In this document: positions 7,786 through 58,278 of the stretch, piece by piece
Position numbering within the stretch: position 1 is the stretch's first letter
How the letters are laid out: each line of letters opens with the position of its first letter
Assembly: GCA_024613925.1 (NCBI GenBank)
Contig: GCA_024613925.1_4713.1
Strand: one strand, 5' to 3'
Length of the DNA stretch: 64,000 nucleotides
DNA from: a phage
Notes under the pieces: generated by a model
Told to the model about the DNA's origin: nothing
Database searches by the model: none
Seen by the model: only the letters and a program-made list of their open reading frames with translations
Position numbers and translations under genes: made by a program

Positions 7786-7819
7786 TTCTTACGATCCTTT
7801 TTATTTATTCGGTTAGGTG

Positions 7820-9616: not shown

Positions 9617-9655
9617 CACACACTCCTTTCAGAAAGTTGCTTAAGCAGATTAAAG

Positions 9656-17519: not shown

Positions 17520-17834
17520 CGTATTTTACCTTTCTATGTTAGGTGGGTTGCGGATAGAAGAATCAATGCATAGATTGATCGTTCTTTGTTAGAAATTATT
17601 GCCGAACCGGTTATGGTTATATGGTTGGTAGTACGCCATAGGCTCCGGTTTAGGGATTTCCATGGTCGGATTTTTGGAATTGATTGCCATCACGTAAATT
17701 GTTACGGGCGATACCGCGTGATTCATTTCGACGGCCACACGGTTGTTTGATCGATTGTTCAACTGGTACTGATTACGATTGGTTGATAACAGTAGAGCTA
17801 CTGCCTAAAACTCTACCGTTGTTTAGATACCGTA

Positions 17835-18695: not shown

Positions 18696-18748
18696 TTTTG
18701 TAGCTCCTTGATTAAAGTAAGGATGGATACGATTATTTATTATCGCTT

Positions 18749-19549
18749 TTAGTTTTTACCATTCCCCCAGCAGGGTTCTTCGTAAAAATGGTGCGGATAG
18801 CGATAATGAGAATTATTGGGTCTTCCTGTCGTTTCTTTCTGTGAGTCGACGACTAACGCGTAAAATAATTGGTGCTTGTCCATCATCGAAAAGTAAGAGG
18901 CAAGCAGTTTTTCGTTTAACGCGTCGCATGGTCGACAGGTACGACCACAAAGCGTTACGATACGGCCGTCAGGATAAACTTCACGGATCGTTCGCCATTC
19001 ACCGATACCAACCGGCGATGGTGCTGATGTGCCGCCCGCTATCGTTAAATATCGGTCGTACGTAGTACGGCATTCGGGATGAACGTAAATTGGCTGGGTA
19101 TTAGTACTGTCGTTTTCGGTTTGATGTTTACTCACGTATACCTCAAGGTAGATCGTTGGTAATCCGATTAGAACGCCGGTATCACGACGTTTTTTGGTAA
19201 TCCGAGGACGGATACTATCGAGCACGCTTTCCAGTTTTTCTGCGACTTCGTCAGCCGGTAATATATACCAGTATTGTGGTTCTGGGTCATCACCATGACT
19301 GAATAAGATACGACAGTCGGTGCTATTATTTTCTTCTACTTCAGGCGGGAAGATGATGGTGTGAACCGTATGACGTTCTGCGATATAAAATCCTTCGGGT
19401 CCCTCAGTTTTGGTAAGTGTAAAGGACCAGGGTGAACAATCTTCAGGTGATAAGCCTGCTAGGAAAAAGTTCGTCCGGATTGGCGCGTCCCATTTCGTGA
19501 TCATGTTAGCGTGACCAATAACACCTAACTTTTGATAAATATCTGTCAT
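18749..19549 (-). CDS. hypothetical protein (about 266 aa), tandem paralog of 17835-18695
   Basis: ORF-track start 19675 would run through the conserved hairpin; internal ATG at 19549 has GAGGA RBS 7 nt upstream. Confidence 0.6.
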   Translation of the reverse strand: MTDIYQKLGVIGHANMITKWDAPIRTNFFLAGLSPEDCSPWSFTLTKTEGPEGFYIAERHTVHTIIFPPEVEENNSTDCRILFSHGDDPEPQYWYILPADEVAEKLESVLDSIRPRITKKRRDTGVLIGLPTIYLEVYVSKHQTENDSTNTQPIYVHPECRTTYDRYLTIAGGTSAPSPVGIGEWRTIREVYPDGRIVTLCGRTCRPCDALNEKLLASYFSMMDKHQLFYALVVDSQKETTGRPNNSHYRYPHHFYEEPCWGNGKN

Positions 19550-19605
19550 GATTGTATCCTCGATTATTAAGAGAAATTTACAATGATAACAGTAACCGCT
19601 GTTAT

Positions 19606-19700
19606 CACCTAGGTAATGTAGTCGTGAAATAAACTGGGGTAATGCGAAATAAGACAGCATAGAACCCTCTCCCAACCCGTAAGGGAAGGGAGAGGGAATA
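19606..19700. repeat. conserved intergenic cassette, copy A (about 90 bp, near-identical to copy B), includes stem-loop 19665-19696
   Basis: CACCTAGGTAATGTAGTCGTGAAATAAACTG ... CGAAATAAGACAGCATAGAA-CCCTCTCCCAACCCGTAAGGGAAGGGAGAGGG-AATAT. Confidence 0.6.
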
Positions 19701-19702
19701 TA

Positions 19703-20335
19703 TCACCAATGATCGAAGGAACCAGGAGTGTTACGAACGATCTCAACTTGGAAGGTTATTGGTACTGATGGCAATGAAACATATTCGCGTTGCGATAGCG
19801 GGACGTTGTCTTCTCGCTCATCGATGCGAGCAGAACCTGTCAGAAATTGGAACATAGCGACTTGAAGCTCATCGGTGAAACGGAGGTACTCACCGATGTG
19901 TGGTGTTGCATCATATCGAATAAGTACGTTGCCAAACCGTCGTGCGATATTTGGAGTATCTGTGAACGAAACAGGGAAATCCAAAGTCATTCCCATCGTT
20001 TCACCTGGCTTCATTTTCCGAATCGACGCAATTGGCACGTCGAAGATATTCCATTCTTCTTTCATCGTGTCTGGAAACACACCGCGATACAAGATGGTCT
20101 TTTGATGACGATGAACGGGTTGTAAACGGTCAACCAATATTTTCAAAGGTTTAAGTTCTTCAGCCAATTCATAATCTGCTTGGATGTTCCACTTTGCCGC
20201 AAGTTCCATTAGGTTGGGATACGCGCTATATTTATTGACGATAGCCCAGTTAACATTACGCAAATCAATAGGAAGGAATTTGATAATTTCCTTGTTGAAT
20301 ATCCATTGGTTTAATTTCTTAATCTCCGAAAGCAT
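19703..20335 (-). CDS. hypothetical protein (about 210 aa)
   Basis: ORF-track start 20434 overlaps the upstream gene by 83 nt; the internal ATG at 20335 lies 16 nt after the upstream stop with a weak AGTGAG RBS. Start uncertain. Confidence 0.5.
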   Translation of the reverse strand: MLSEIKKLNQWIFNKEIIKFLPIDLRNVNWAIVNKYSAYPNLMELAAKWNIQADYELAEELKPLKILVDRLQPVHRHQKTILYRGVFPDTMKEEWNIFDVPIASIRKMKPGETMGMTLDFPVSFTDTPNIARRFGNVLIRYDATPHIGEYLRFTDELQVAMFQFLTGSARIDEREDNVPLSQREYVSLPSVPITFQVEIVRNTPGSFDHW

Positions 20336-20351
20336 GATGTACTCACTACAG

Positions 20352-21719
20352 CTAAACGGTTGGACGAACGGTGTTGTCTTTTTCTGGTGCAAGCCATAAC
20401 GTGACCGTACCATGGCATGTCCACTGTGGTTCACGTACAGAAGAACCAGCCATCGTTACAGCGCAATCGGTACGCATGACAACCCCGTATGCTTCGCAGA
20501 GATTGTTATCCTGCATCCATACAACTTTAGCAGGCATGCCGGGATACAACATATCCATGTTTGCGTATTCCCACACCAACTGCATTGTTCTACCGCGTAA
20601 TCCAGCAGTATTACTTAATTCACGCCACCGGTTATCGGTTACGCGTCCCATCCCTTTCGCCACCTTCACGTTATCGCTACGCTCTTCAGTTACGTACTCG
20701 CTAACGTTTACAGTACGACTGATTATTGTATCGCCTCCTTTTGATAACGTCATTCCCTGACTCATCTGACTTGCCGAAACAAAACGCCCACCCGCATTAC
20801 CTAACAACGAAGCCGCGTTATTGATGTCGTTTACCGACGCCCCTCTCGTACATGCAATTTCCACGTATTTGTCACGATTGATCCAGGTCTTGTCCATCCC
20901 CGGAAACATATCGGCAGGATAGTTGTAAAAGATAGCCGTACGGCGACCGTCAGAGAAACGGGTTTCGTCATAGAGAGGATAAATATACAGATACGGGGAT
21001 TGGTAATAACAACCGACGTCCGCTGAATAAATACCGACCTGGTTCTGGATTTTGTCTACGAGATCCATTGCGTTGGTACCATGCGGAAGAATAAGCAACT
21101 TGAACAGGTTGTCGTTATTCGGTGCAACAATATCCACACCCTGCATTTTGAATCCGGTGTCGGCTTCAACCGCAGAAAGTATCTTGCTGAATTCGAGCCG
21201 TAACACATCCAGCACTTTCGACCCGGTATAGTTCTCACCGGTTTCTGATTGCATGAAGCTTTCAAGAACAGGATCGAACAGTTGAAATTGAAGATCGACC
21301 ATTTGTTCGTAGTCTTTCTTCGAAGAATCGGTTGCGGTACGTTCGTCGTTAGCAGACATACGACTGTCTACGGTTGTTAAACAAACCGCTCGGTAGACGT
21401 AAGCTTGTGCAGCATCGTCTACGGTTTGGCGTTGTCCGCGCATCAGGCTGTACGCCTGCACGATGATGCGCATTTTAAGTTGTTGTTGGTACGGTAGAAT
21501 GTATTTTCCGTAACTGCCTGGCGGGAACTTTACAGAGATATAAAGTTCATCTCCTGCGTTACGTTCGTAGTCTCGATACGTGTGGACTTGAGTCACTAAA
21601 GGAACAGACACCGTCATTGACGGCGTGATTAATTCCGCGGTGACTTTATACGCAACAGCAACTGCTTCCTGCGCAAATGTACCGATATACCGTCCTAACG
21701 GCGTCTGTTTGTAATCCAT
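20352..21719 (-). CDS. hypothetical protein (455 aa), possibly structural
   Basis: Long ORF; its ATG is 2 nt after the stop of the upstream gene (operon-like packing). Confidence 0.6.
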   Translation of the reverse strand: MDYKQTPLGRYIGTFAQEAVAVAYKVTAELITPSMTVSVPLVTQVHTYRDYERNAGDELYISVKFPPGSYGKYILPYQQQLKMRIIVQAYSLMRGQRQTVDDAAQAYVYRAVCLTTVDSRMSANDERTATDSSKKDYEQMVDLQFQLFDPVLESFMQSETGENYTGSKVLDVLRLEFSKILSAVEADTGFKMQGVDIVAPNNDNLFKLLILPHGTNAMDLVDKIQNQVGIYSADVGCYYQSPYLYIYPLYDETRFSDGRRTAIFYNYPADMFPGMDKTWINRDKYVEIACTRGASVNDINNAASLLGNAGGRFVSASQMSQGMTLSKGGDTIISRTVNVSEYVTEERSDNVKVAKGMGRVTDNRWRELSNTAGLRGRTMQLVWEYANMDMLYPGMPAKVVWMQDNNLCEAYGVVMRTDCAVTMAGSSVREPQWTCHGTVTLWLAPEKDNTVRPTV

Positions 21720-42594: not shown

Positions 42595-45500
42595 TTATCT
42601 TACGTTATTGCTATTCTGCTGTTCGCTGAACCAACCGTACACCTTGAGATCGGTACCGTATTTCAATGCGATATACGCATTGAGCGCAGCACAGAACAAA
42701 GACGCGAATGCCCATATCAGCGAAGGATCAACATCTTCCGTTACCACCGGGAGAGTATTATCCGGTTCCCACGATGGAGAACCGTCCATGAACGTCGTGT
42801 ACCATTCCCGCCGTTGTTCTTCGGTGGTAAAGTCGCTATGGGGTTCCAATGCTTCTTTTGCCAAACGTCGATATTCGAACATATGCGTTGCTAAAGCCGA
42901 TGAGTTACCAGATTCGCCTTCATAGTTCGGATCCACCGCATAACAGAGTTCTGTTGAATCTAACAAAGCAACCGCCTGTGTGATGCTGTCGGCAGTGCCT
43001 GCACCATAGAGCTCGATAGACTGCGAAAGCTTCTCACAGAACGCATTTAACGCGGCAGGATTGGACACCTGAAGGTCAAGGCCTAATGTCCACGGATAGT
43101 TACTGAACACACCCGTAAACCGCGGCATGACACCCAACAGATGTTGTCCGATTACGGCACGGTTATAAACAGCCCGGTTATAGACTTGAAACGCAGCCTC
43201 CAAGGCTTGGTTATAATGACGACGAAGTTCGTCACGCGAGTTGCGGAATCTGTTTGCCGCAAGACTCGTGGCTGCGACGCTACAAACATCGTAATTGGTG
43301 GACGAGAGCACAGTTTCGTTAAGATCGAACGATTCCTGTTTCAACGATCCGCTAACCGCTGCTGCTTCGCTGTTTGCTTTATCGACAACTGTACTCAAAG
43401 CGTTGATGTAACGTTTCGCTCGGACTTCCAACCATTGTGCAATGCCGAGAATATCCACCGCAGCTTTAGCAAGATCGCGTGCATTCACGATTTCGTTCTT
43501 CAACGCCCCTAAACCTTTATTCTCAGGCGAAGAGGCTTGTTGACGAATCATGCTGTTCAACATGGTAAGCAGATTATCCAACTCATGTCCACTGACCTTG
43601 TTACGCGCATCGGTAATCGGCCCTTGCAGGAATTTACGGCAACCGTCGTTGTATCGAATCAGTTTATCCACATCGATCGATTCGTTCGTAGATTCCTTGA
43701 ACTGATCCTTCAATTCTTCACGGTAGTCATGGATTTCACTTGCGAGATTATCGATAGTGATACCGTTATGTCCAAGAAGAACTTTATTGAAGCTACCTTT
43801 CTCGAATGCAAGAGCAAGACCTTCACGAATCTTAGCGAGTTTATCCTGATCGAGTTCACGACCGTTCGATAGCTCTTTCACTTCCGAGCTGATTAGTGCC
43901 GCAACGTTACCCAGATTGTCGGTAACCCCTTTGAACGCTCCCGACCAGATCGTTCCTGCTTCAGCATATTTCGCAATGGTCTGAATACCGACGGTGTGCA
44001 GCGACGCTAAACGTTTCTTCGTGCCTTCGGTAAGCAGTGCGTCTTTAGCTCGCGTAAGTTGACTGTTATTAGCTTCCGCCTGCTGAATCGCCGCTTTCGC
44101 ACTTCCATTACGCCAGCTCTTAACCAACCAATCAACCAAACGTTTTAAGATGTTGACGGTGTATTCCATCGTCCGCCGTAACGTTTCCCACGCGCTTTCT
44201 GCGGTATAGATGCCGTACCCTTCCATCTTCAACGCTTTCAAGCTTGTTTGACGTGCCAACCATTCTACCGTTGCAGAACAAACGTTTACTAATGCTTCCA
44301 GGTAGTTGTAATAGACGTCTGTTGCGGCCGTTTCGTTGAGCTTTGAATGCAGATAAAACTGATCGTAAAGTTCGTCGTCATCGCCGAAGGCATCGTAGTT
44401 CCACAGCTCAGTATCGCAGCCTGTGCCGCAGAAGACGTCTGCTGTTGTAAACTCTTTAAGCGCTTTAGCCGCATCATTCGTCAGGAATTTACCTGTTTCA
44501 ACTACATCATCGACGTTAAGCTTGGGGAGTTCATCAGTAACTGGCTCTTGCAACATTAACGTGTTGAAGAATGCGTTGTACTTGTATCCGAGCCATTTTG
44601 GATAACTGCTTTCAGGTATCGTAGACAACGGCTTGATTTTCTTGGCTTCAGCCAGCGTGTCTTTTGCAACCTGATATTGGTTTTCCCCGGCCTTGATACG
44701 ACGTAATGCTTTTTCTTCCAACTGCTGGAGTTTGGCATGCCGTGCTTGTGCGGGAGCTTCAACAAGTTTTTGTACCGACCGCACTGCAGAAATCGCTTCT
44801 TTTAATACGATCATCGGCATACGAACTTTGCCGTCGTCAAAACTAAGAGCCCGAGCGACACGCTTACTTACGACAGGTTTGTCGTGGATATTTCGTTCCA
44901 CCCACGATTTGTTTGCGTAAGTTTGGGTGAGCTGCTGCTGGATATTTTCAAGGTATTTCCAGCTTTTGGACGCTTTGCTATCCAAAAGCGGATTCGGTCC
45001 CTTCTTATCGAAAAGTTTCAGAATCGGATCAAAGAAACCTTCCTGTACGAGATCGATACACGTGTAACCATCAGCCGCTTCGATTTCCTCTTGGGTTTTA
45101 TCCCAGAGTTGTTCACTGTGTACCGCACGAGCTGTTTCTGATACGGACATAATAACTTCAGTGACAACCTCAGCGTAAGACAATACTGCCCGCACCCACT
45201 CTACCAACATACGCTGATAGATAACACGTTGACATTGACAACGTGTGATGATGGCGAGATAACTTACGCTGTCGAGTTGTTCATTCGTACGAACATCCTC
45301 AACTTGTTCAATTAGTTGTTTAACTAACTGTGCTGTCTCTGGGTAATCGTGGACGACGTCGCGAATAACTTGCGAAGCATACACTGCGGTACCAAGGGCG
45401 AGATGGAGTTTGGTTGCATCCCACTCTTTTTCTGCTGTTGCCGGATTGTTCGGTATTAGGTAACCGATATCGTCGAAATATGGCTTAATAACATCGATAT

Positions 45501-46191
45501 TAGTCTTACTCTTAGTCGGTATCAGCGTATCATCAATGTTGCTTTGGTCTGGTGTTAATGCTAGCATACCCTTGAGAATTTGAGTATCAGCAGCGTATAA
45601 CGAAGTTAATGCTTCAGTTACGTCAGCGAGATCGATAATAGGCGACCATACCTTCAAGAGTTTACTTTCGTATTTCTCAATCGCGATTTCGATATCTTCC
45701 TTTACATCGGGATGATCGATAAGACGACCTACCGTCTGTTGTATCTCGGCAAATCGGTTGACATGATTTTGAGTCAATGCGGTAAAATCGTCAACGTACG
45801 ACGCATTGTCTTCAAGACGCGTAAGTTCCTGCTCCAGAAGATCTTTTACTTGCGTGGCGGATGCGTTTCTCAACTGTTCCCCGATAATCGCGATGGCTTT
45901 ATCGACAACACGGCAGGCTTCATTGAAACCGGTTGTTGAAGGTAACTCGGTCCATAATGCCAGCGGCTTACCTTCCATTGCGTCAGGAAGGGAATATGAC
46001 AACATTGCTAGTTGTTGACGTGATACCTGTTTGTCACGATGTAACGTTTCTTTCAACGCCAGAAGCTCATCAAGACCCACACTGCTAGGGATCGTGGGAT
46101 GTGATACGGCGTTGATATTTTCTGTCAATGACTCAAGAACCAATAAACCATTTTCAGCGGAAGATAACCCTGCTTTAAGGTATTTGTTCAT
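42595..46191 (-). CDS. giant hypothetical protein (1198 aa), predominantly helical by composition
   Basis: ATG with GGAG RBS immediately after hairpin 46207-46237; no catalytic motif recognised. Confidence 0.55.
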   Translation of the reverse strand: MNKYLKAGLSSAENGLLVLESLTENINAVSHPTIPSSVGLDELLALKETLHRDKQVSRQQLAMLSYSLPDAMEGKPLALWTELPSTTGFNEACRVVDKAIAIIGEQLRNASATQVKDLLEQELTRLEDNASYVDDFTALTQNHVNRFAEIQQTVGRLIDHPDVKEDIEIAIEKYESKLLKVWSPIIDLADVTEALTSLYAADTQILKGMLALTPDQSNIDDTLIPTKSKTNIDVIKPYFDDIGYLIPNNPATAEKEWDATKLHLALGTAVYASQVIRDVVHDYPETAQLVKQLIEQVEDVRTNEQLDSVSYLAIITRCQCQRVIYQRMLVEWVRAVLSYAEVVTEVIMSVSETARAVHSEQLWDKTQEEIEAADGYTCIDLVQEGFFDPILKLFDKKGPNPLLDSKASKSWKYLENIQQQLTQTYANKSWVERNIHDKPVVSKRVARALSFDDGKVRMPMIVLKEAISAVRSVQKLVEAPAQARHAKLQQLEEKALRRIKAGENQYQVAKDTLAEAKKIKPLSTIPESSYPKWLGYKYNAFFNTLMLQEPVTDELPKLNVDDVVETGKFLTNDAAKALKEFTTADVFCGTGCDTELWNYDAFGDDDELYDQFYLHSKLNETAATDVYYNYLEALVNVCSATVEWLARQTSLKALKMEGYGIYTAESAWETLRRTMEYTVNILKRLVDWLVKSWRNGSAKAAIQQAEANNSQLTRAKDALLTEGTKKRLASLHTVGIQTIAKYAEAGTIWSGAFKGVTDNLGNVAALISSEVKELSNGRELDQDKLAKIREGLALAFEKGSFNKVLLGHNGITIDNLASEIHDYREELKDQFKESTNESIDVDKLIRYNDGCRKFLQGPITDARNKVSGHELDNLLTMLNSMIRQQASSPENKGLGALKNEIVNARDLAKAAVDILGIAQWLEVRAKRYINALSTVVDKANSEAAAVSGSLKQESFDLNETVLSSTNYDVCSVAATSLAANRFRNSRDELRRHYNQALEAAFQVYNRAVYNRAVIGQHLLGVMPRFTGVFSNYPWTLGLDLQVSNPAALNAFCEKLSQSIELYGAGTADSITQAVALLDSTELCYAVDPNYEGESGNSSALATHMFEYRRLAKEALEPHSDFTTEEQRREWYTTFMDGSPSWEPDNTLPVVTEDVDPSLIWAFASLFCAALNAYIALKYGTDLKVYGWFSEQQNSNNVR

Positions 46192-51080: not shown

Positions 51081-52580
51081 ATGAGCGAACAAGAACGAAA
51101 ACCTAAGAAGAAACTGCTCGGTATTCAATGTCGACACATCAGCTATAACGAAGCGAACGATGGCAGCAAGAACGACCTCATGATCGCAAAAGAGATCATG
51201 TTCTTTGATGATAATACGCAAGCGACGAACCTTCGCTTCTTCGAGAATTACAAACGTCCGTTTTGGGTGACGGTAGAGAGTAAACGCAAGAACAAATATA
51301 AAAAGGAAAGCGAGAAGCTATCGCATGTGCGTCGCTACGATGTCCGTCAAAGTGAACTGGTTGAAAAGATCAGTTCGGTGCTTTATAAAAGACGTGCTGA
51401 TGATAACACCCGTTTACAACAGCTTGCACGGAGTCCCTACCTCTATGGCACGGACGTTAGCGCCAGCTGTTATTTAAAAACCCAATACAATACAAAATGG
51501 CCGGAATACGTCGATAAATTACCTGCTTCCATTGCCTGTTTCGATATCGAAACCGACGTTGTCCACGGGCACGGTAAGATCGTCTGTATGTCTATTACAA
51601 TGGGATACAATGCGATACTTTGCTATACCAAGGACTTCGTTGGTCATATTCCGAATGCGATTGAGAAAACCCATGAGAAGATTCGATATTACCTGGCCGA
51701 ACGTCTGAACACCAAAGAAGATCCGCACGCATTTGAAAAATACCAATACGATGTTCGAATCGTAGAAAGTCCAGCACAAGCGGTCATCCAATGCATGCAG
51801 AAGGTTCACGAATGGCAACCGGATTATCTCCTTGGCTGGAATATCGCGTTCGATATTCCGCGTATGCTCCAGGCACTGAACGAGGAAGGGTATCGTCCCG
51901 AGGATGTTTTCTCCGATCCTCGTGTACCACCTAAATACCGTATTGCTCGCTGGGTGCCACCGAAGACCGACAAGGTATCTGCTTCAGGTCGTAAAACCAA
52001 CCTTACCCTTGAGCAAACCTGGCCGATGTTTTATACGATGGCCACGTATCAGGTTATGGATGCGATGTGTGGTTATAAGTTCGTTCGTTTAGGAAGACCG
52101 GATGAGGGACGCTATTCACTCGATGCGGTATTAGAGCGAAATAAATGCCATACGAAATTAAAAGCAATTCCTGGTACAGAAGGGTTCACAGAGCTCGCCT
52201 GGCACGAAGAGATGCAAACGAACCATCAAATCGACTACGGCGTATATAACCTTTGGGATAACCAAGGCATCGAGGCGTTGGACCAGAAAACAAAAGACTA
52301 TTCGATGACCATCCCTATTCGTTTGGCGGCGTCGGATTTGAAAGATTTCAGTTCTAACCCTAAACGTATCTGCGATAAACTTTTCTTCGTTTATCTTAAC
52401 CGTGGGGAAGTCATGGGATGCACCGCCGACGATATGACTCAGGAAGAAGATAAGTGGGTTATCTCACGAACCGGACATATCGTCACATTACCATGCGATC
52501 TCATGGCGGACAACGGCATTCATCTCTTCTGGGATATGCCGAACCTGAGAAGTTATATTCGATTATTTGTTGCGGATTAA
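51081..52580 (+). CDS. family-B DNA polymerase, N-terminal 3'-5' exonuclease part (exon 1 or N-terminal fragment)
   Basis: Exo I FDIETD (residues 154-159, nt 51540-51557), Exo II GWNIAFDIP (about 253-261), Exo III-like YQVMD (324-328). No motif B or C before the stop at 52578-52580; the called stop is probably intron sequence. Confidence 0.65.
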   Translation: MSEQERKPKKKLLGIQCRHISYNEANDGSKNDLMIAKEIMFFDDNTQATNLRFFENYKRPFWVTVESKRKNKYKKESEKLSHVRRYDVRQSELVEKISSVLYKRRADDNTRLQQLARSPYLYGTDVSASCYLKTQYNTKWPEYVDKLPASIACFDIETDVVHGHGKIVCMSITMGYNAILCYTKDFVGHIPNAIEKTHEKIRYYLAERLNTKEDPHAFEKYQYDVRIVESPAQAVIQCMQKVHEWQPDYLLGWNIAFDIPRMLQALNEEGYRPEDVFSDPRVPPKYRIARWVPPKTDKVSASGRKTNLTLEQTWPMFYTMATYQVMDAMCGYKFVRLGRPDEGRYSLDAVLERNKCHTKLKAIPGTEGFTELAWHEEMQTNHQIDYGVYNLWDNQGIEALDQKTKDYSMTIPIRLAASDLKDFSSNPKRICDKLFFVYLNRGEVMGCTADDMTQEEDKWVISRTGHIVTLPCDLMADNGIHLFWDMPNLRSYIRLFVAD

Positions 52581-52648
52581 GAAATAAATCGGTTAAGTAT
52601 TACTACTCTGTTCGATGGTTATGGGATAACCAAATGGAGTAGTCATGC

Positions 52649-53755
52649 ATGAATAAATGGTATTTACCAGAGGCACGTTTTAAATACTACGCAACTGACG
52701 ATGGTCTTTTCCATTCAACTGGAGAGGCTGTTCCGGTTACCGTTAAAGATGGTATCTCGTATGTCGAGATCGACTGGTATCGTGGTCTAGGTCTATATGA
52801 CGCCGGACTCGCTGTTATGTGTGCGTTGAGAGCGATAAACATACCAATCTACTTACTTGATCAAGCATATTCTCTTTACATTGACGGGAATCCTGAGAAT
52901 GTAAAACGTGAGAACCTGCTTTACCGTTTCAAAGGCGGTAGGTTGGAAGTACCTGGATGTCCCGGCTATTATTTCATCCCCTTCCATTCTCGTTATGCTA
53001 TTAACGAGGAAGGTTTGGTGATCAATGTCGAGACGGGGTTCGAAAAACGCTGGTCGCAAATGAAACCTAACAAGAAACAAAAGACCCATGGCGGTTACGT
53101 TTACCAACGTACGGTAAATGATAACGGATTCACATCCCAGCTTTATCAGCATCGTGCTATGGGTTACGTGTTTCTTGAATACGGTGCCGACGTTATGGAT
53201 AAGACAATAAACCATAAGAACGGCATCAAATGGGATAATCGTCCATGTAACATTGAGTGGGCAACGTATACGGACAATAATAAGCATGCGGTTGATAGCG
53301 GTCTTCGTACAGAAGGATTGCATCCTGTTAAGGTTAAGGATTACAACACCGGTGAAGTCAGGGTATTCCCTTCAATCGCTGCGTGTTGTGCTGCTTATCC
53401 ATGCTTGGAACGTAAACGTGTTTGGTATTGGATGACGCGTAAAACGAAATTCATGCCAGCCTGCAATCTGTATTTCAAAGAAGTTGACGATGATACCCCA
53501 TGGCCAGATTGGCAGATCGGACAGCCTCGTCGTCTTCAAGAATATACGATGCCTAACCCTATCGCAGCTATCGATAAACAAACTGGTAAACGTTATGTGT
53601 TTGCATCAATTGCTCACGCACAACGAGAGACAGGTGTTTCTAACGTGACTATCATGAAGTACTGTCGTAATAGGCTTACAGAAGGTCGTTCTCCATTCAT
53701 CTTCCGCTATTTTGAAGATGTTAGTTCGATGCCTGTAGGCCTTAACGACGCTTAA
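52649..53755 (+). CDS. HNH homing endonuclease (I-HmuI-like)
   Basis: GGAG RBS; HNH core INHKNGIKWDNRPCNIEWATYTDNNKHA; two helix-turn-helix-like modules (FPSIAACCAAYP and FASIAHAQRETGVSNVTIMKYCRN). Confidence 0.8.
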   Translation: MNKWYLPEARFKYYATDDGLFHSTGEAVPVTVKDGISYVEIDWYRGLGLYDAGLAVMCALRAINIPIYLLDQAYSLYIDGNPENVKRENLLYRFKGGRLEVPGCPGYYFIPFHSRYAINEEGLVINVETGFEKRWSQMKPNKKQKTHGGYVYQRTVNDNGFTSQLYQHRAMGYVFLEYGADVMDKTINHKNGIKWDNRPCNIEWATYTDNNKHAVDSGLRTEGLHPVKVKDYNTGEVRVFPSIAACCAAYPCLERKRVWYWMTRKTKFMPACNLYFKEVDDDTPWPDWQIGQPRRLQEYTMPNPIAAIDKQTGKRYVFASIAHAQRETGVSNVTIMKYCRNRLTEGRSPFIFRYFEDVSSMPVGLNDA

Positions 53756-53759
53756 CCGA

Positions 53760-54110
53760 TTTTAGGTCCCGGTGGGGATAACGCCCCCACCGGATTCCCG
53801 TTAATTGCTGGAACCCCCTAAAGCCTTTCGACCACAGCGGATTCTGAAAAGAAAAACGTCAAGGTTAGAAAACAGAAAGGATGTTCGTAAGGAAACGATA
53901 AATGGGCAATCAGCAGCGAAGCTTCTAAGGGCCTGCATTAGCAATAAGACCTAAGAAGAACGTTCAACGACTATCCGGTCGCGCGGAGTAAGGGACAAGC
54001 GTCCCCAAACACGGGAGGGGTGCGAAAGCATTCCATGATATAGTCTGCTCCTAAGTGAAAGCTTAGGCGGGTGGTACACACCGGCATAAGAGTTGCGTCT
54101 TATGTGGACA
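53760..54110 (+). ncRNA. group I intron catalytic core (ribozyme) candidate
   Basis: P-like AATTGCTGGAA (53803-53813), Q-like AATCAGCAGCG (53908-53918), R-like GTTCAACGACTAT (53962-53974), S-like GATATAGTC (54037-54045); P7 pairing GACTA/TAGTC; hairpins CCTAAG-tgaaag-CTTAGG and CATAAGA-gttgcg-TCTTATG at the 3' side. Confidence 0.6.
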
Positions 54111-54368
54111 ATGGCTTGACATTTCTTCAAGTTATCCCAACGGGCAGATACTGCTCAATCTATCCAGAGCATGTGTTTTTCGTGAGCTCTCGCGCATTGA
54201 GGGCGTCTCTGACTATCAATTCAGGAAGTTAGGTATCAACTTTATTACCGGAGGTAAAACGAACGCTGTAGACTTCTGTAGAATCGTTTATAAAGCGCCA
54301 TCGATGTTTGAACTCTTAGAACATTTCGATGCGACGCGTCCAAAAGAGGAAGCGCGGACCATCGAATG
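54105..54368 (+). CDS. possible downstream exon of the DNA polymerase gene (no ATG; motif-A-like DISSSYPN)
   Basis: About 100 stop-free codons directly 3' of the ribozyme core without an initiator Met; contains D-I-S-S-S-Y-P-N (compare DxxSLYPS) and KLGINFITGG. Too short to complete a polymerase. Boundaries tentative. Confidence 0.3.
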
Positions 54369-54416
54369 ATTCAAGTAAGTTGATCCTCGTTTAACAAAAA
54401 AGAAAACGCATGCGAA

Positions 54417-54456
54417 GCCCCTCCCCCTGGCGGAAGCCGGAGGGAGGGGTGGGGTT
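54417..54456. terminator. GC-rich imperfect stem-loop between convergent genes
   Basis: CCCCTCCCCCTGGC-ggaa-GCCGGAGGGAGGGG followed by TGGGGTTTATG. Confidence 0.45.
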
Positions 54457-54941
54457 TATGCGTGTTCGTTGCCAACCTTCACTTTGTAATCAGCGTCGGT
54501 TAAGAAAATAGACAGGAATCCATGTTCTTTGCAAATCTGACTAAGGATGTCAGCAATGATTTCGTTGATCATCGGTTTGTTTGCAAGGGCATAGATGTAC
54601 CCGGGTGTAAAAGAAAGTGCATGATTGATCATAGGCTCATGAGAAGCCAAGATAAGGATCACGTGATGCTTCCCATCGTCGGTAACGACCGCTTGCGTAG
54701 ACACGAAGAAATCAGTGAAGCAGCAGCGATCACAGGCTTTAGGTATATACAAATCACCCAGAGCTTCGTCGCGTGCTTTTATGTGTGTTTCAGGGGTGAT
54801 GCTGCTAAGTTGATCTTCAGCGAGATCCAAGACATCCTCAATCGTTTTAAGAATAGCGTTGCGGAAATCCTCGCGGTAGAATGGGATGATATCACGATCG
54901 TTCATGTAATCGCCGGATTCGATAGTAAAGTTGATGTTCAT
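54456..54941 (-). CDS. hypothetical small protein (161 aa), member of the small-gene array
   Basis: ATG with AGGAG RBS. Confidence 0.55.
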   Translation of the reverse strand: MNINFTIESGDYMNDRDIIPFYREDFRNAILKTIEDVLDLAEDQLSSITPETHIKARDEALGDLYIPKACDRCCFTDFFVSTQAVVTDDGKHHVILILASHEPMINHALSFTPGYIYALANKPMINEIIADILSQICKEHGFLSIFLTDADYKVKVGNEHA

Positions 54942-55011
54942 TGAATGCTCCTAGTGGTTATGTCGATTGATTGATGTATTGATTTATGTTTGAAGGTGTT
55001 GTTCACCTTCG

Positions 55012-55452
55012 TTAGATATCATCATCCGTGGTGCCGTAGGACATATGCTGAATTAATTTTCTCGGCTCGATGAAAATACGACATGTGATAAACACATCGG
55101 GATCGTATTGCTCCACGCAACGTCCGAAGGCTTGTTTTGCGGCTTGACGCACCGATGTTATTTCCTGATCGTTCATCGCATTATCGAATTCGATGTTGAT
55201 CGTGATTTTATCGGGAAATAAATAGATAAAGTAATCGCCACTGATACCACCATCATCAAAGTGACGTTCATTGTAACACTGGACGAGCTTACCTTCACGT
55301 TCTTTCTGATACCATCCAAGGATACTATTAAGACCTCTGTCCACGCATTCGAATGCTTGAGTAATAACATCCTCAACGACGGAGGCTGCCGTGGGACCAT
55401 TGAATAGACGATCTAAGCGCTTTTTCATCGATTTGTCGGTTTTCATGTTCAT
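55012..55452 (-). CDS. hypothetical small protein (about 146 aa), member of the small-gene array
   Basis: ORF-track ATG 55479 abuts the hairpin with no RBS; internal ATG 55452 has AGGAAAAG RBS. Confidence 0.5.
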   Translation of the reverse strand: MNMKTDKSMKKRLDRLFNGPTAASVVEDVITQAFECVDRGLNSILGWYQKEREGKLVQCYNERHFDDGGISGDYFIYLFPDKITINIEFDNAMNDQEITSVRQAAKQAFGRCVEQYDPDVFITCRIFIEPRKLIQHMSYGTTDDDI

Positions 55453-55481
55453 TGTTTCTTTTCCTGTTATAGTCAACATAT

Positions 55482-55516
55482 AGCCCTTCCCCGGCCTTGA
55501 CGGCTAGGGAAGGGTA
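55482..55516. promoter_or_regulatory. imperfect GC-rich stem-loop in the 5' leader of 55012-55452
   Basis: CCCTTCCCC-GGCC-ttga-CGGC-ta-GGGAAGGG. Confidence 0.4.
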
Positions 55517-55529
55517 TGTTTACGTGTAA

Positions 55530-55925
55530 TTACTCTTTGACGTCAGTTGTCGTTTCGACATGCTTCTCACTACTGACGTACCAGAGCAGGTACGTTGGGA
55601 AAAGATTGACCTCTAAGCTAAATGGGATATTGTATTTCTCTTCCATTTTACAGAGATGTTCTTTAAGTAAATTTCTCGCGTCTCTGTCACCACGAACAGA
55701 GTGCCAGTCTAGTTCTTTGTTCTCCTTTACCAGGACCTCTACGATGATACGTTGCTCGTGAACCTCGGTTTTCACAGTGAAAAGTAAATCGCTGCTATCA
55801 AAACGGGTAAAACGAATGTATGAGCCAGGTGTTTTTTCTTGTTTAATAATATCGATCATGGTAGAAATGCGCGGATGATCGATGTTGTCGTTAACAGCTT
55901 TAACGATGGATTCTACAATGCTCAT
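55530..55925 (-). CDS. hypothetical small protein (131 aa), member of the small-gene array
   Basis: ATG with AAGGA RBS. Confidence 0.55.
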   Translation of the reverse strand: MSIVESIVKAVNDNIDHPRISTMIDIIKQEKTPGSYIRFTRFDSSDLLFTVKTEVHEQRIIVEVLVKENKELDWHSVRGDRDARNLLKEHLCKMEEKYNIPFSLEVNLFPTYLLWYVSSEKHVETTTDVKE

Positions 55926-56084
55926 TTTTTTTATCCTTAATGTTATCGGTTTAGAAATATTACTTAAATATTGTTTTATTTATCGATGGTTGTTACCCAT
56001 GATGGGAAAGCCGGATGGAAACAGAGCGTGAACGTAACCTTCGTATCGTATTTAATCGCTGAACTTTATCTTTGATAGACATGA

Positions 56085-56543
56085 TTACCCCTTAGCTCCT
56101 TCTTCGTCTGGAGAGTATTCCATCGTGTAGAATTCATAACCATCGGAAAACTTGAGTGTTAATGTAATAGGGAAATCGCACGGCATAGCTGATTTCGTAA
56201 ATGCGTTATTAGCAACATCAGCCAACCGACGTATAGCATCAACCCCGCTGACGCTGAATGGTAGTTGTATGTTGATAAGGATACGATGCTTGTAAACATA
56301 GAAAACAACGGTACTGTCGAGATAAACGCTATGGAACGGTATTGTTGGGATGCGTTCCACAATGGTAAAATACGTCCCGTCATTATCGCTATGCCCCATC
56401 GACCAAATATCGGATTTGCGTAGATTTTGTTTGAGGGATTCGATACTTCGAGTGACGGTCTCAGCAACAGGCGTGACGTAAGTGTCTCTATGCGAGTCGA
56501 AAAGTTCGTTGACGTTAGATTCGAATGAATACATTGTTGCCAT
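56085..56543 (-). CDS. hypothetical small protein (152 aa), paralog of 56610-57104
   Basis: GAGGT RBS; C-terminal CDFPITLTLKFSDGYEFYTMEYSPDEE aligns with FDMPVILTINGHDGSGLFEFHYDPDNE of the neighbour. Confidence 0.55.
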   Translation of the reverse strand: MATMYSFESNVNELFDSHRDTYVTPVAETVTRSIESLKQNLRKSDIWSMGHSDNDGTYFTIVERIPTIPFHSVYLDSTVVFYVYKHRILINIQLPFSVSGVDAIRRLADVANNAFTKSAMPCDFPITLTLKFSDGYEFYTMEYSPDEEGAKG

Positions 56544-56609
56544 TTTCTACCTCAATAGTTTAACCGGCACGTGTCCCCACCTAACAAGGGACACGATATC
56601 GTTGATTAA

Positions 56610-57104
56610 TTACTCTTCTGTGTTTTCATTGTCAGGATCGTAGTGGAATTCGAACAGCCCTGAACCGTCGTGTCCGTTGATTGTTAGTATAACGGGCATA
56701 TCGAATCCTCGGACGCGCGAATGAAAACACTGTGCTAATTTGAGTTTGGCGTATGCCACTATTTCATTGACGGCAATGCACGACTCACCTGTTATACTCA
56801 GTATAACGTCGATACTAACAATGTTGTCGTGCAACGCAAAACGCCAACGATCGATACGAGTATTATCTTTAGCGGTTGTCTCGTTTACGAGATAGACTTT
56901 ATCATCAACCGACAAAGCGGGACTCCAGCAACGTTCGTTTATTAAATTCGCCTGGAGTTTTAGTATCGTCTGATCGATAATATCCCAACACGTAACCAGC
57001 GTGACGTCAGGCACTGAGTAGAGAAGGGCGAGCACTTTATCCTTTATTTTAGGTGTCTCTGCAGGACGTCCGCAAATACCATGCATTTCAACTTTCTTAT
57101 TCAT
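56610..57104 (-). CDS. hypothetical small protein (about 164 aa), paralog of 56085-56543
   Basis: ORF-track start is GTG 57110; ATG 57104 follows. Confidence 0.55.
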   Translation of the reverse strand: MNKKVEMHGICGRPAETPKIKDKVLALLYSVPDVTLVTCWDIIDQTILKLQANLINERCWSPALSVDDKVYLVNETTAKDNTRIDRWRFALHDNIVSIDVILSITGESCIAVNEIVAYAKLKLAQCFHSRVRGFDMPVILTINGHDGSGLFEFHYDPDNENTEE

Positions 57105-57148
57105 ATTCACTTCTTTCTTAATCTAAATGTTAGTTGGGGATGGGATGC

Positions 57149-57751
57149 TTACATGCTTTCTAGCATATTGACGATCATGGAACCCATACCGAAACTCGGT
57201 CTCTCACCGATATACTCAGCAAGTTGACGGTGTACGTCTTTTGGATTTCCTTCTTCACCATCGGCATCGATGTAGACCGAAAAAGAAACCGAATCGGAAT
57301 CCACGCTGATAACCAGACGACGTTCATTGCGTTCCTTGAGCGTGTCGACGATAGATGCTTTCAGTACCGGGATCGCATTCATCGCGTGCAAGATATCTCC
57401 ATCGGGTTTCGGCAGATCGATCTTTTCTTTCAGGTCGATATTGATGTTGGTTACAATTGGGTTGAGGTCGACCTTGACATAATCGTTGGGATACATGCGA
57501 ATAATCGCACGATCGATATCTGAACCGTAAAAGTCAACACGTAGCTTTAACACTTCTTTGTTTGGATCCATGTTTTCATCCATACCCGCCTGCAAGAAAC
57601 GTTCTACGTTATCCAGTTCACGATAAACTGACGCTTCGATTTCTTTCAGATAGTTGGCTGCGGTTTCATGTTCCTTACGTAGCTCGTCTTTAAGGAGCTG
57701 TACGGTGGTTTCACTGGAACGAATGCTGTTCGCGAATTGGGTAATTGACAT
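57149..57751 (-). CDS. hypothetical protein (about 200 aa), member of the small-gene array
   Basis: ORF-track start is TTG 57781; internal ATG 57751 has AAGGAA RBS. Confidence 0.5.
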   Translation of the reverse strand: MSITQFANSIRSSETTVQLLKDELRKEHETAANYLKEIEASVYRELDNVERFLQAGMDENMDPNKEVLKLRVDFYGSDIDRAIIRMYPNDYVKVDLNPIVTNINIDLKEKIDLPKPDGDILHAMNAIPVLKASIVDTLKERNERRLVISVDSDSVSFSVYIDADGEEGNPKDVHRQLAEYIGERPSFGMGSMIVNMLESM

Positions 57752-57800
57752 ATTGAATTCCTTAAATTCTCTTGAGTTCAATTAATGATGAAAAGCTGTA

Positions 57801-57827
57801 AAAAAAAAAGGTGGGGCGAACCCCACC
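57801..57827 (-). terminator. canonical rho-independent terminator for minus-strand transcription
   Basis: Plus strand A9-GGTGGGG-cgaa-CCCCACC; as minus-strand RNA this is a 7-bp GC stem with GNRA-type loop followed directly by U9; lies just after the stop of 57853-58278. Confidence 0.7.
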
Positions 57828-57852
57828 AAAACGTCAGACACACGCAGGAAAA

Positions 57853-58278
57853 TTAATTCAGTGATGCATATAAGGCATAACGACTGTAGATCTCAACCGC
57901 CGGTCCGTTATGGGTTAACAGACCATCCTGGCTGTAATACTGGAAAAATGAATAACGTTTGTCGAAGTGATAAACAAAAGCAATGTCTTTGCCGTCAAAA
58001 CCCATGACGCGCGGCCTGTTTTTATCTAGCAACGCTTTGACTTTTAACAGTGTTGCCGCACGCGCTTTAACATTAGGGATTAATCCATCACAATCGATAT
58101 AAACCGTGTAACCTGTTTCAGATGTTGCGACGGTTGTATTGCGATTGACGCGAAAGATTTTTGTTTTGTACGTATCATCTTCAAGAATTGGGTTTTGTTT
58201 TTCGTATTTTCGTTTACGTAGAAATTCTACAACGGTGATATAGTTAGCGGTAATATGCCCGGTTATAGCTTGTAACAT
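57853..58278 (-). CDS. hypothetical small protein (141 aa), member of the small-gene array
   Basis: ATG with AAAGGA RBS. Confidence 0.55.
   Translation of the reverse strand: MLQAITGHITANYITVVEFLRKRKYEKQNPILEDDTYKTKIFRVNRNTTVATSETGYTVYIDCDGLIPNVKARAATLLKVKALLDKNRPRVMGFDGKDIAFVYHFDKRYSFFQYYSQDGLLTHNGPAVEIYSRYALYASLN

What the first reader, a model, noticed from the sequence alone, without database searches (positions are those of the whole stretch)
51081..54368. DNA polymerase appears fragmented: exonuclease domain plus at most a short motif-A-like exon, with no motif B or C in the window
The 499-aa ORF has Exo I, II and III but then stops. The only candidate continuation (54105-54368) carries DISSSYPN (motif-A-like) and ends about 85 codons later at a hairpin and a convergent gene. 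Either the polymerase is split into separately encoded polypeptides with the palm/thumb part elsewhere, or this is a stand-alone proofreading exonuclease. Either is unusual.
Basis: inference. Interest (0 to 1): 0.55.

Follow-up and report, generated by a model that had tools for sequence, protein, structure and literature searches.

The report
Intron-interrupted half of split phage polymerase
This is the gene for the front half of the two-piece DNA polymerase that all phiKZ-like "nucleus-forming" jumbo phages carry, here interrupted by a self-splicing intron with its own homing nuclease; both features are already known kinds, so the finding is real but largely ordinary.

Summary
ORF 51081-52580 carries Exo I/II/III and stops. 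A short downstream exon carries motif A. No motif B or C is in the window.

- **Source:** the window is a Goslar-like E. coli chimallivirus, 96% identical in nucleotides to phage Goslar.
- **Gene:** it is the orthologue of phiKZ gp82 / Goslar gp068, the N-terminal subunit of the family's split, divergent family B DNA polymerase.
- **Interruption:** a 1,537-nt group I intron (52578-54114; Rfam 73.4 bits) sits between codons D499 and L500, two codons before the catalytic Asp of motif A. It carries an HNH+NUMOD1 homing endonuclease gene (52649-53755).
- **Splicing:** joining 52577 to 54115 gives a 583-aa protein. It matches PHROG 3011 without a break (positions 5-494, then 495-571). It differs at 2 residues from an uninterrupted ORF in an intronless relative.
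- **Partner:** the C-terminal subunit (motifs B and C; Pfam PF20286; phiKZ gp50 / Goslar gp244) is encoded about 95 kb away in Goslar, outside this window.

The split-polymerase reading is supported and the stand-alone exonuclease reading is not. The split is already published. The modestly new points:
- The intron is unannotated in Goslar.
- Motif A is an intron hot spot, with different introns at the same site.
- The target site is recoded in the intronless allele.

The parts
51081..52577 (+). Exon 1 of the DNA polymerase N-terminal subunit gene (499 codons, ends ...RLFVAD). It encodes the N-terminal domain and the 3'-5' exonuclease domain (Exo I D155/E157, Exo II N254/D258, Exo III Y389/D393).
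   Evidence: ORF list. PHROG 3011 'DNA polymerase' E 2.3e-150, profile positions 5-494. 96% nt identity to Goslar gp068. Invariant residues. AF2 model pLDDT mostly above 90 for residues 11-460, with top Foldseek hits RB69/T4 gp43 at E 3.5e-13.
52578..54114 (+). Group I intron, 1,537 nt. It starts with UAA, an in-frame stop directly after the 5' splice site, and ends with G (omega-G).
   Evidence: Boundaries are fixed by the intronless allele L013 and by homologue alignment (ADLD). PHROG profile continuity 494/495. Rfam core hit. The exon flanks align to Goslar at 96% but the intron does not.
52649..53755 (+). Intron-encoded homing endonuclease gene (368 aa), HNH_3 + NUMOD1 (I-HmuI-like architecture). 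It lies between the 5' splice site and the ribozyme core.
   Evidence: Pfam HNH_3 30.5 bits (cut-off 24.8) and NUMOD1 24.5 bits (cut-off 22.8). PHROG 59/959 HNH endonuclease. 43% aa identity to Goslar gp069. 78% to the copy in L014.
53742..54067 (+). Catalytic core of the group I intron (P2-P9 region as modelled by Rfam).
   Evidence: RF00028 73.4 bits against a gathering score of 50, E 9.5e-17, full model 1-253. About 99% identical to the core in L014.
53721..53728 (+). Proposed internal guide sequence UUAGUUCG. It would pair with 52573-52580 (CGGAU|UAA) to form P1, with the U52577-G53724 wobble at the splice site. This is an inference.
   Evidence: It is the only match to the pattern in the intron, and it lies 14 nt upstream of the Rfam core. 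PhiPA3's intron has an analogous GGAU|UAA / UUAGUCC pairing. L014 has one mismatch on the intron side. No covariation test was done.
54115..54369 (+). Exon 2 (84 codons plus stop): LDISSSYPN...TIE. It holds motif A (catalytic D501, Y506, P507) and a short helical C-terminal tail.
   Evidence: PHROG 3011 positions 495-571, E 6e-19. D501 aligns with RB69 D411. The last 95 residues are identical in Goslar and the intronless MAG and exon 2 is 100% identical in L014. The AF2 pLDDT is low here (below 50 at 498-508).
54417..54449 (.). GC-rich hairpin between the polymerase gene and the convergent gene 54456-54941(-). It is terminator-like, and the T-run lies on the minus strand side.
   Evidence: Fold of 54370-54470: -44.2 kcal/mol, z -3.98. 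Sequence read directly.

Best explanation
The locus encodes the N-terminal subunit of the two-gene, highly divergent family B DNA polymerase that is a core feature of phiKZ-like (Chimalliviridae) jumbo phages. It is the orthologue of phiKZ gp82 and Goslar gp068.

The gene is interrupted between codons D499 and L500, inside the motif A coding sequence (ADLDxxxYP). The interrupting element is a mobile group I intron that carries an HNH/NUMOD1 homing endonuclease gene.

Proposed mechanism:
- The primary transcript self-splices, joining 52577 to 54115. This step is inferred.
- The spliced mRNA encodes a 583-aa protein containing the N-terminal domain, the proofreading exonuclease and the first palm strand with the motif A aspartates.
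- This protein must assemble non-covalently with the separately encoded C-terminal subunit to complete the active site. That subunit is the phiKZ gp50 / Goslar gp244 family, Pfam PF20286, and carries the motif B fingers, the motif C palm and the thumb. It is encoded about 95 kb away in Goslar and lies outside this window. Assembly is inferred.
- The endonuclease presumably nicks or cuts intronless alleles at this site in co-infecting relatives and so spreads the intron by homing. This is also inferred.
For: - **Identity of the phage:** 96% nt identity to Goslar, with the window syntenic to Goslar 32008-91825.
- **Intron:** Rfam RF00028 73.4 bits; U at -1 and G at the 3' end; HNH_3 and NUMOD1 above the Pfam cut-offs.
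- **Splice junction:**
  - PHROG 3011 is matched by exon 1 at positions 5-494 and by exon 2 at 495-571.
  - Intronless homologues read ...[AG]DLD[IV]xxxYPN.
  - A contiguous 583-aa ORF in a 237-kb Goslar-like MAG (L013) differs from the spliced product at only 2 residues.
- **Full length of the protein family:** 287 of 291 phage records cover at least 80% of the 583 aa, and most of the 50 rows listed do so in one piece. The maximum homologue length is 703 aa.
- **Family B fold:** the profile hits RB69 gp43 at E 7.5e-6 with collinear Exo and motif A segments. The AF2 model has pLDDT 89.6, and Foldseek gives RB69/T4 gp43, Pol epsilon and Pol II at E 1e-13 to 1e-10.
- **Partner subunit:** phiKZ gp50 carries KINNNSYSG and ISDTDS. 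Goslar gp244 carries KLDNNSLSG and LSDTDS, is 32.6% identical to gp50 (E 1e-138) and matches PF20286 at E 2e-204.
- **Co-occurrence:** the counts per genus are the same for both subunits: Pseudomonas 81/81, Erwinia 62/62, Salmonella 24/24, Vibrio 23/23.
- **Literature:** the 'split subunit DNA polymerase' of phiKZ (PMC5105663) and 'DNA polymerase: gp50, gp82' (bioRxiv 10.1101/2024.03.24.586471).
- **Mobility signature:**
  - A different intron sits at the same site in Goslar, with a HEG only 43% identical.
  - The same intron is in L014, with a ~99% identical core but a 78% identical HEG.
  - An ORF-less intron lies two codons downstream in PhiPA3.
  - About 20 of 120 metagenomic homologues are truncated at ...VAD or ...VADLD.
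  - 20 of 60 nt differ, all synonymously, around the site between the intron-containing and intronless alleles, against 3-4% elsewhere.
Against: - Splicing, subunit assembly and endonuclease activity were not observed; all are inferred from sequence.
- Pfam itself sees exon 1 only weakly (DNA_pol_B_exo1, 16 bits, below the 23-bit cut-off).
- P1 is only proposed, no P10 pairing was found, and the minimum-energy fold of the 5' end prefers other hairpins.
- The C-terminal ~120 residues of the model have low confidence. This fits a need for a partner but does not prove it.
- I found no biochemical demonstration that gp82-like and gp50-like proteins form one enzyme in the papers I could search.
Confidence: 0.9

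Rival explanations
1. A stand-alone proofreading 3'-5' exonuclease: the 499-aa or 583-aa protein works without any polymerase partner and the motif A-like stretch is vestigial.
For: The only confidently folded part of the model is the N-terminal and exonuclease region. Pfam detects only the exonuclease domain, and weakly.
Against: - D499, D501, Y506 and P507 of motif A are invariant across 93 homologues at about 38% mean identity.
- D501 aligns with the catalytic D411 of RB69.
- Exon 2 is kept identical at the protein level while its DNA diverges.
- The partner gene has matching per-genus counts in the phage collection.
Confidence: 0.04
2. A decaying gene: the intron no longer splices, so the phage makes only the truncated 499-aa product and exon 2 is a relic. 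This is how the Goslar GenBank record annotates it.
For: Goslar gp068 is annotated as a 499-aa CDS with no exon 2. An in-frame stop follows the 5' splice site directly.
Against: - The ribozyme core scores well above the Rfam threshold over the full model.
- The last 95 residues, including all of exon 2, are identical in the window, Goslar and the intronless MAG, and exon 2 is 100% identical in L014, despite many synonymous changes.
- An in-frame stop just inside the intron is to be expected in an intron that interrupts a coding sequence (from general knowledge, not tested here).
Confidence: 0.03
3. The two polymerase halves are joined after transcription or translation, by trans-splicing of RNAs or by split-intein ligation, rather than working as two polypeptides.
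For: Nothing positive was found. Split-intein joining of a family B polymerase is known in Nanoarchaeum (from memory).
Against: - The N subunit ends with a conserved helical tail and a normal stop in all homologues.
- No intein family appeared among the Pfam hits for either half.
- No second intron half lies next to the end of exon 2 (Rfam scan of the window).
Confidence: 0.02

Closest known systems
Split-subunit family B DNA polymerase of phiKZ-like phages (phiKZ gp82 + gp50; 201phi2-1 gp144 + gp83; SPN3US; Goslar gp068 + gp244). Attributed in PMC5105663 to its reference 22 (which I believe is the OBP genome paper of Cornelissen et al. 2012; not checked). The C half is Pfam PF20286.
   Same: It is an orthologue, with 27-39% identity over more than 95% of its length. 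It shares the domain content (N-terminal domain, Exo, motif A), the same C-terminal end point, and a partner encoded far away.
   Different: Here, and in Goslar, L014 and PhiPA3, the N-subunit gene is additionally interrupted by a group I intron. phiKZ and 201phi2-1 instead have in-frame insertions in the exonuclease region.
Group I introns with HNH nicking endonucleases in phage DNA polymerase genes: SPO1/SP82 I-HmuI, Bastille I-BasI, Pf-WMP3 I-PfoP3I (cited in PMC12908238 and PMC11620839).
   Same: A self-splicing intron sits in a catalytic motif of an essential replication gene. The ORF is HNH + NUMOD-type, and the intron core and ORF evolve independently (core ~99% against HEG 78% in L014).
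   Different: The host gene is the N-terminal subunit of a split family B enzyme of a nucleus-forming jumbo phage. The endonuclease's nicking or cutting activity and its target site are untested.
PhiPA3 gp210, the intron-encoded HNH endonuclease in a virion RNA polymerase gene, which mediates interference competition with phiKZ (PMC11620839).
   Same: Same phage family, same kind of element (group I intron + HNH endonuclease) in an essential polymerase gene, with intron-containing and intronless relatives coexisting.
   Different: A different target gene. No competition phenotype is known for this intron.
Split archaeal family B polymerases (the Methanothermobacter thermautotrophicus two-gene PolB; the Nanoarchaeum equitans split-intein PolB), recalled from memory and not tested here.
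   Same: A family B enzyme encoded by two separate genes.
   Different: There is no detectable specific relationship. The position of the split relative to the motifs was not compared.

Membership tests
Family B DNA polymerase | 3'-5' exonuclease motifs Exo I (DxE), Exo II (Nx2-3FD) and Exo III (Yx3D) | tested here: met
   D155/E157, N254/D258 and Y389/D393 are invariant or nearly so in 93 homologues. They align collinearly with RB69 gp43 residues 97-380.
Family B DNA polymerase | Motif A (DxxSLYPS) with the catalytic Asp | tested here: met
   ADLDISSSYPN after splicing. D501, Y506 and P507 are invariant. D501 aligns with RB69 D411.
Family B DNA polymerase | Motifs B (KxxxNSxYG) and C (YGDTDS) in the same polypeptide | tested here: not met
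   Both are absent from the 583-aa product and from the whole window. They are present in a separate protein in relatives (phiKZ gp50, Goslar gp244). This is therefore a subunit, not a complete family B polymerase.
Family B DNA polymerase | Fold of the N-terminal and exonuclease domains | tested here: met
   AF2 pLDDT 89.6, pTM 0.84. Foldseek top hits are RB69/T4 gp43 at E 3.5e-13, probability 1.0, about 450 aligned columns.
Chimallivirus split polymerase, N-terminal subunit (phiKZ gp82 family, PHROG 3011) | Full-length match to the family profile, ending at the family's C-terminus | tested here: met
   Exon 1 matches profile positions 5-494 and exon 2 matches 495-571 of 576. 287 of 291 phage homologues cover at least 80%.
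Chimallivirus split polymerase, N-terminal subunit (phiKZ gp82 family, PHROG 3011) | A separately encoded C-terminal subunit (PF20286) in the same genome | not testable with these tools
   The rest of this phage's genome is not in the window. In the 96%-identical Goslar the partner is gp244 at 174314-176467.
Chimallivirus split polymerase, N-terminal subunit (phiKZ gp82 family, PHROG 3011) | Physical assembly of the two subunits into an active enzyme | not testable with these tools
   The only support is matching per-genus counts for the two subunits and low model confidence of the palm fragment on its own.
Group I intron | Conserved catalytic core (covariance-model match above the curated threshold) | tested here: met
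   RF00028 73.4 bits against a gathering score of 50, model positions 1-253.
Group I intron | U before the 5' splice site paired to a G in the guide sequence (P1); G as the last intron base | tested here: inconclusive
   U52577 and G54114 are present. A candidate P1, CGGAU|UAA with UUAGUUCG (53721-53728), fits and parallels PhiPA3. It has no covariation support and one mismatch in L014.
Group I intron | Precise excision restores the host reading frame | tested here: met
   The joined exons match an uninterrupted ORF in intronless L013, with 2 aa differences in 583.
Group I intron | Self-splicing activity | not testable with these tools
   This needs in vitro transcription with GTP and Mg2+, or RT-PCR from infected cells.
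HNH homing endonuclease (I-HmuI-like, HNH_3 + NUMOD) | HNH catalytic motif and a NUMOD DNA-binding module | tested here: met
   PF13392 30.5 bits (cut-off 24.8). PF07453 24.5 bits (cut-off 22.8). PF22083 I-HmuI NUMOD-like scores 18.8 bits, below its cut-off.
HNH homing endonuclease (I-HmuI-like, HNH_3 + NUMOD) | Encoded inside a mobile intron and associated with intron presence/absence polymorphism | tested here: met
   The ORF lies within 52578-54114. Intron-containing alleles (window, L014, Goslar) and an intronless allele (L013) occur among closely related phages.
HNH homing endonuclease (I-HmuI-like, HNH_3 + NUMOD) | Site-specific nicking or cleavage of the intronless allele | not testable with these tools
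The clustered synonymous recoding of the site in L013 is only suggestive.

The most novel reading that the evidence does not exclude
Motif A of the chimallivirus polymerase N subunit may be an active battleground for homing endonucleases.
- Several intron lineages (window type, Goslar type, PhiPA3 type) compete for the same 6-nt stretch.
- Intronless E. coli chimalliviruses have escaped by synonymous recoding of the target.
- The endonuclease may act as an interference-competition weapon against co-infecting Goslar-like phages, by disabling their DNA polymerase gene. This would parallel what PhiPA3 gp210 does to the phiKZ RNA polymerase gene.
Probability: 0.3. Interest if true: 0.5.

Novelty: new member of a known kind. 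Interest (0 to 1): 0.3.

Why it matters
- **Annotation:** the Goslar reference record annotates gp068 as a 499-aa 'DNA polymerase' and leaves the intron core and exon 2 unannotated, although it marks two other group I introns. PhiPA3 gp085 is truncated in the same way. Anyone modelling or expressing this essential replication protein in these model nucleus-forming phages needs the spliced 583-aa sequence, because the catalytic motif A aspartate D501 lies in exon 2.
- **Biology:** several introns at one catalytic motif, a mosaic of core and endonuclease gene, and a recoded intronless allele together give a tractable E. coli system for studying intron homing and phage-phage competition inside phage nuclei.
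- **What it does not change:** the split polymerase itself is already known.

Tried and rejected
- **First junction guesses.** I considered ...FVAD|ISSS and ...YIRF|GQWLDISSS, the second suggested by a hairpin at the exon end. Both were rejected because homologues read ADLD. The correct junction is AD|LD.
- **Goslar gp039 'polymerase'.** I suspected that its homologue at window 7820-9619(-) was the missing half. It is the phiKZ gp123 non-virion RNA polymerase subunit (PDB 7ogp_E, E 1e-40) with no Pfam hit.
- **Motif regex.** A search for motifs B and C in six frames gave only spurious hits in tiny or unrelated ORFs.
- **phiKZ and 201phi2-1 two-piece hits.** I took these tblastn results for possible introns. 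They are in-frame insertions within continuous ORFs.
- **Rfam on Goslar.** At the gathering threshold it found no intron in the Goslar gene. A permissive scan found a sub-threshold core of 44.7 bits.
- **First P1 candidate.** GUUCG at 52610-52614 was dropped in favour of 53721-53728, next to the core. No P10 pairing was found at the accepted position. A 6-bp complement of the first exon-2 bases at 52592-52597 is not adjacent to the guide sequence.
- **Promoter and terminator scans.** They gave nothing above shuffled expectation.
- **Literature.** I found no paper describing a DNA polymerase intron in Goslar or PhiPA3. That is absence in the searched library only.
- **Complex model.** I did not model the N + C complex. 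The C subunit is outside the window, a fusion would exceed the length limit, and a chimera would probably not be accepted by the tool.
Full report
**What the window is.**
- The region 51081-54500 matches Escherichia phage vB_EcoM_Goslar, a nucleus-forming jumbo phage of the Chimalliviridae, at 96% nucleotide identity. The match covers only the two ends of the query.
- The whole window is syntenic with Goslar 32,008-91,825.
- The 499-aa ORF corresponds to Goslar gp068, annotated 'DNA polymerase'. The next ORF corresponds to gp069, 'NUMOD1 domain protein'. About 800 nt of unannotated DNA and a convergent gene follow.

**Checking the observation.**
- ORF 51081-52580 exists.
- In an alignment of 93 homologues the invariant residues include D155/E157 (DIETD, Exo I), N254 with D258 (WNIAFD, Exo II) and Y389/D393 (YNLWD, Exo III).
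- A profile built from that alignment hits RB69 gp43 (1clq, E 7.5e-6) in three collinear segments: Exo I-II, Exo III and motif A.
- An AlphaFold2 model of the spliced protein (mean pLDDT 89.6, pTM 0.84) finds RB69/T4 gp43, Pol epsilon and E. coli Pol II as best structural matches (E 3.5e-13 and weaker, probability 1.0).
- The DISSSYPN continuation is real.
- It ends at a strong GC-rich hairpin (54417-54449) and a convergent ORF.
- No motif B or C occurs in any real ORF of the window. tblastn with the phiKZ and Goslar C-terminal subunits finds nothing.

**The gap between the two pieces is a group I intron.**
- Rfam's Intron_gpI model matches 53742-54067 over its full length at 73.4 bits (gathering score 50, E 9.5e-17).
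- The ORF in between (52649-53755) has HNH_3 and NUMOD1 domains above the Pfam cut-offs, the architecture of I-HmuI-type intron endonucleases.
- It also matches HNH endonuclease PHROGs.

**Exact splice junction.** Three independent lines agree.
1. Intronless homologues from SPN3US, RP31, phiKZ and 201phi2-1 read ...[AG]D-[LA]-D-[ILV]-x-x-x-Y-P-[NS] at this point. The window reaches that only by joining ...FVAD (gat, ending at 52577) to LDISSSYPN (ctt, starting at 54115).
2. PHROG 3011 'DNA polymerase' is matched by exon 1 at profile positions 5-494 (E 2.3e-150) and by exon 2 at positions 495-571 (E 6e-19), with no gap or overlap.
3. A 237-kb Goslar-like metagenome contig (ENA ERZ27286049, locus L013) carries an uninterrupted 583-aa ORF. 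It reads ...cgtctattcgttgcagac|cttgacattagc... across the junction and differs from the predicted spliced product at only 2 of 583 residues.

Details of the intron:
- It spans 52578-54114 (1,537 nt).
- It follows a U, ends in G and begins with an in-frame UAA.
- A plausible P1 pairs CGGAU|UAA (52573-52580) with UUAGUUCG (53721-53728), just upstream of the core, with the U-G wobble at the splice site. This would put the endonuclease ORF in the P1 loop.
- PhiPA3's intron has the same arrangement.
- The P1 is an inference. It has no covariation support, and L014 has one mismatch.

**The spliced protein is complete, and it is half a polymerase.**
- tblastn of the spliced product finds 291 phage records, all phiKZ-like phages. 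In 287 of them one place covers at least 80% of the query, and most of the 50 listed rows are a single piece ending within a few residues of the window's C-terminus.
- Among the best 120 metagenomic homologues none exceeds 703 aa. The family is therefore never fused to a fingers/palm/thumb module.
- Motif A residues D499, D501, Y506 and P507 are invariant, and D501 aligns with the catalytic D411 of RB69.
- In the model, residues 11-460 are predicted at mostly above 90 pLDDT. The last ~120 residues, including motif A (498-508, below 50), are poorly defined. That is what one would expect of a palm fragment that needs partner strands, but this is inference.

**Where the rest is.**
- A preprint names phiKZ gp50 and gp82 together as the DNA polymerase (bioRxiv 10.1101/2024.03.24.586471).
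- The SPN3US paper refers to the phiKZ 'split subunit DNA polymerase' (PMC5105663).
- phiKZ gp50 (731 aa) carries KINNNSYSG (motif B-like) and ISDTDS (motif C).
- Its homologues occur in 306 phage records with the same counts per genus as the N subunit: Pseudomonas 81/81, Erwinia 62/62, Salmonella 24/24, Vibrio 23/23, Serratia 21/21.
- In Goslar the orthologue is gp244 (174,314-176,467). It carries KLDNNSLSG and LSDTDS and is 32.6% identical to gp50 (E 1e-138). It matches Pfam PF20286 'Divergent Family B DNA polymerase' at E 2.4e-204.
- That gene lies about 95 kb from gp068 and well outside the part of the genome covered by this window.
- One candidate inside the window was excluded. The homologue of Goslar gp039 'polymerase' (7820-9619, minus strand) is the phiKZ gp123 non-virion RNA polymerase subunit (PDB 7ogp_E, E 1.2e-40).

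**Signs that the intron is mobile.**
- **Different intron, same site.** Goslar has an intron at exactly the same position, but it is a different one.
  - The exon flanks are 96% identical while the intron sequences do not align.
  - Goslar's core reaches only 44.7 bits, below the Rfam threshold.
  - The two endonucleases share 43% of residues.
- **Mosaic copy.** An IMG/VR contig (L014) carries the window's intron type. Its ribozyme core is about 99% identical, but its endonuclease is only 78% identical in protein.
- **Nearby site in PhiPA3.** PhiPA3 gp085 is interrupted by an ORF-less group I intron (71.7 bits) two codons further downstream, after ADLD.
- **Truncated metagenomic homologues.** About 20 of the 120 best are truncated at ...VAD...VADLD or a few residues beyond. 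This suggests that introns in motif A are common.
- **Recoded target site.**
  - Between the window and the intronless allele, 20 of the 60 nt around the insertion site differ, all synonymously.
  - Elsewhere the difference is 3.1% in exon 1 and 4.4% in exon 2.
  - This fits co-conversion of flanking exon sequence or selection for endonuclease-resistant target sites. Which of the two applies cannot be decided here.

**Comparison with what is known.**
- The split polymerase is an orthologous member of a described and curated family.
- The intron is a standard phage arrangement. Group I introns with HNH nicking endonucleases interrupt catalytic motifs of DNA polymerase genes in SPO1, SP82, Bastille and Pf-WMP3 (references in PMC12908238 and PMC11620839).
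- Group I introns with HNH endonucleases are already known in chimallivirus RNA polymerase genes, including a competitive role for PhiPA3 gp210 (PMC11620839).
- I found no paper describing the DNA polymerase intron of Goslar-like phages or PhiPA3.
- The Goslar record annotates two other Intron_gpI features but not this one.
- The intron is therefore best called a new member of a known kind.

**Verdict.**
- The claim of unusualness is overstated, because the split is a known family trait and the internal break is an ordinary mobile intron.
- Splicing, subunit assembly and endonuclease activity remain inferred.
- Interest is modest (0.3). The value lies in correcting annotation of model phages and in the intron polymorphism at a catalytic motif.

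Noticed in passing
window 7820-9619 (-): A 598-aa protein that Goslar annotates only as 'polymerase' (gp039). It is the homologue of phiKZ gp123, a subunit of the non-virion RNA polymerase (PDB 7ogp_E, E 1.2e-40; PHROG 2943), not part of the DNA polymerase.
   Followed up: yes
window 52597-52648: A long hairpin directly upstream of the endonuclease start codon (52649) holds the GGAG Shine-Dalgarno (52636-52639) in its 3' arm. The fold of 52560-52660 gives -27 kcal/mol, z -3.9. This may be translational control of the intron ORF.
   Followed up: partly
L001 (Goslar) 7498-9259; Goslar record 81187-82948: Goslar has a different, unannotated group I intron (1,762 nt by my boundaries; Rfam 44.7 bits, below threshold) at the identical site. 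gp068 is annotated as a truncated 499-aa CDS and exon 2 is unannotated, while two other Intron_gpI features in RNA polymerase genes are annotated.
   Followed up: yes
L012 (PhiPA3) 5804-6147: PhiPA3 gp085, the DNA polymerase N subunit, is interrupted by an ORF-less group I intron (Rfam 71.7 bits) two codons downstream of the Goslar-type site. The GenBank CDS stops at the intron's UAA and the 78-codon exon 2 (6148-6381) is unannotated.
   Followed up: yes
window 52547-52577 and 54115-54144, compared with L013 5467-5526: There is a cluster of synonymous differences at the intron insertion site: 20 of 60 nt between the intron-containing window and the intronless MAG, against 3-4% in the rest of the gene. 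This could be co-conversion or target-site recoding.
   Followed up: partly
L014 (IMGVR_UViG_3300045988_173921) 2712-4710: A second Goslar-like genome has the window's intron type. Its ribozyme core is about 99% identical but its endonuclease is only 78% identical in protein, so the intron is a mosaic of core and ORF.
   Followed up: partly
window 17622-20352: About 2.7 kb is present here, where Goslar has about 0.2 kb. It carries two ORFs that look paralogous (17835-18695 and 18749-19675) and a third (19703-20434).
   Followed up: no
window 44231-45892: A segment inside the homologue of Goslar gp064 is replaced and enlarged. The ORF 42595-46191 is 1,198 aa against 930 aa in Goslar, with no megablast match across this stretch.
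   Followed up: no
window 54456-58278 (-): A run of about seven small minus-strand ORFs of 130-210 aa downstream of the polymerase gene corresponds to Goslar gp070-gp075. They look like a paralogous array and are more diverged from Goslar (83-90% nt) than the surroundings.
   Followed up: no
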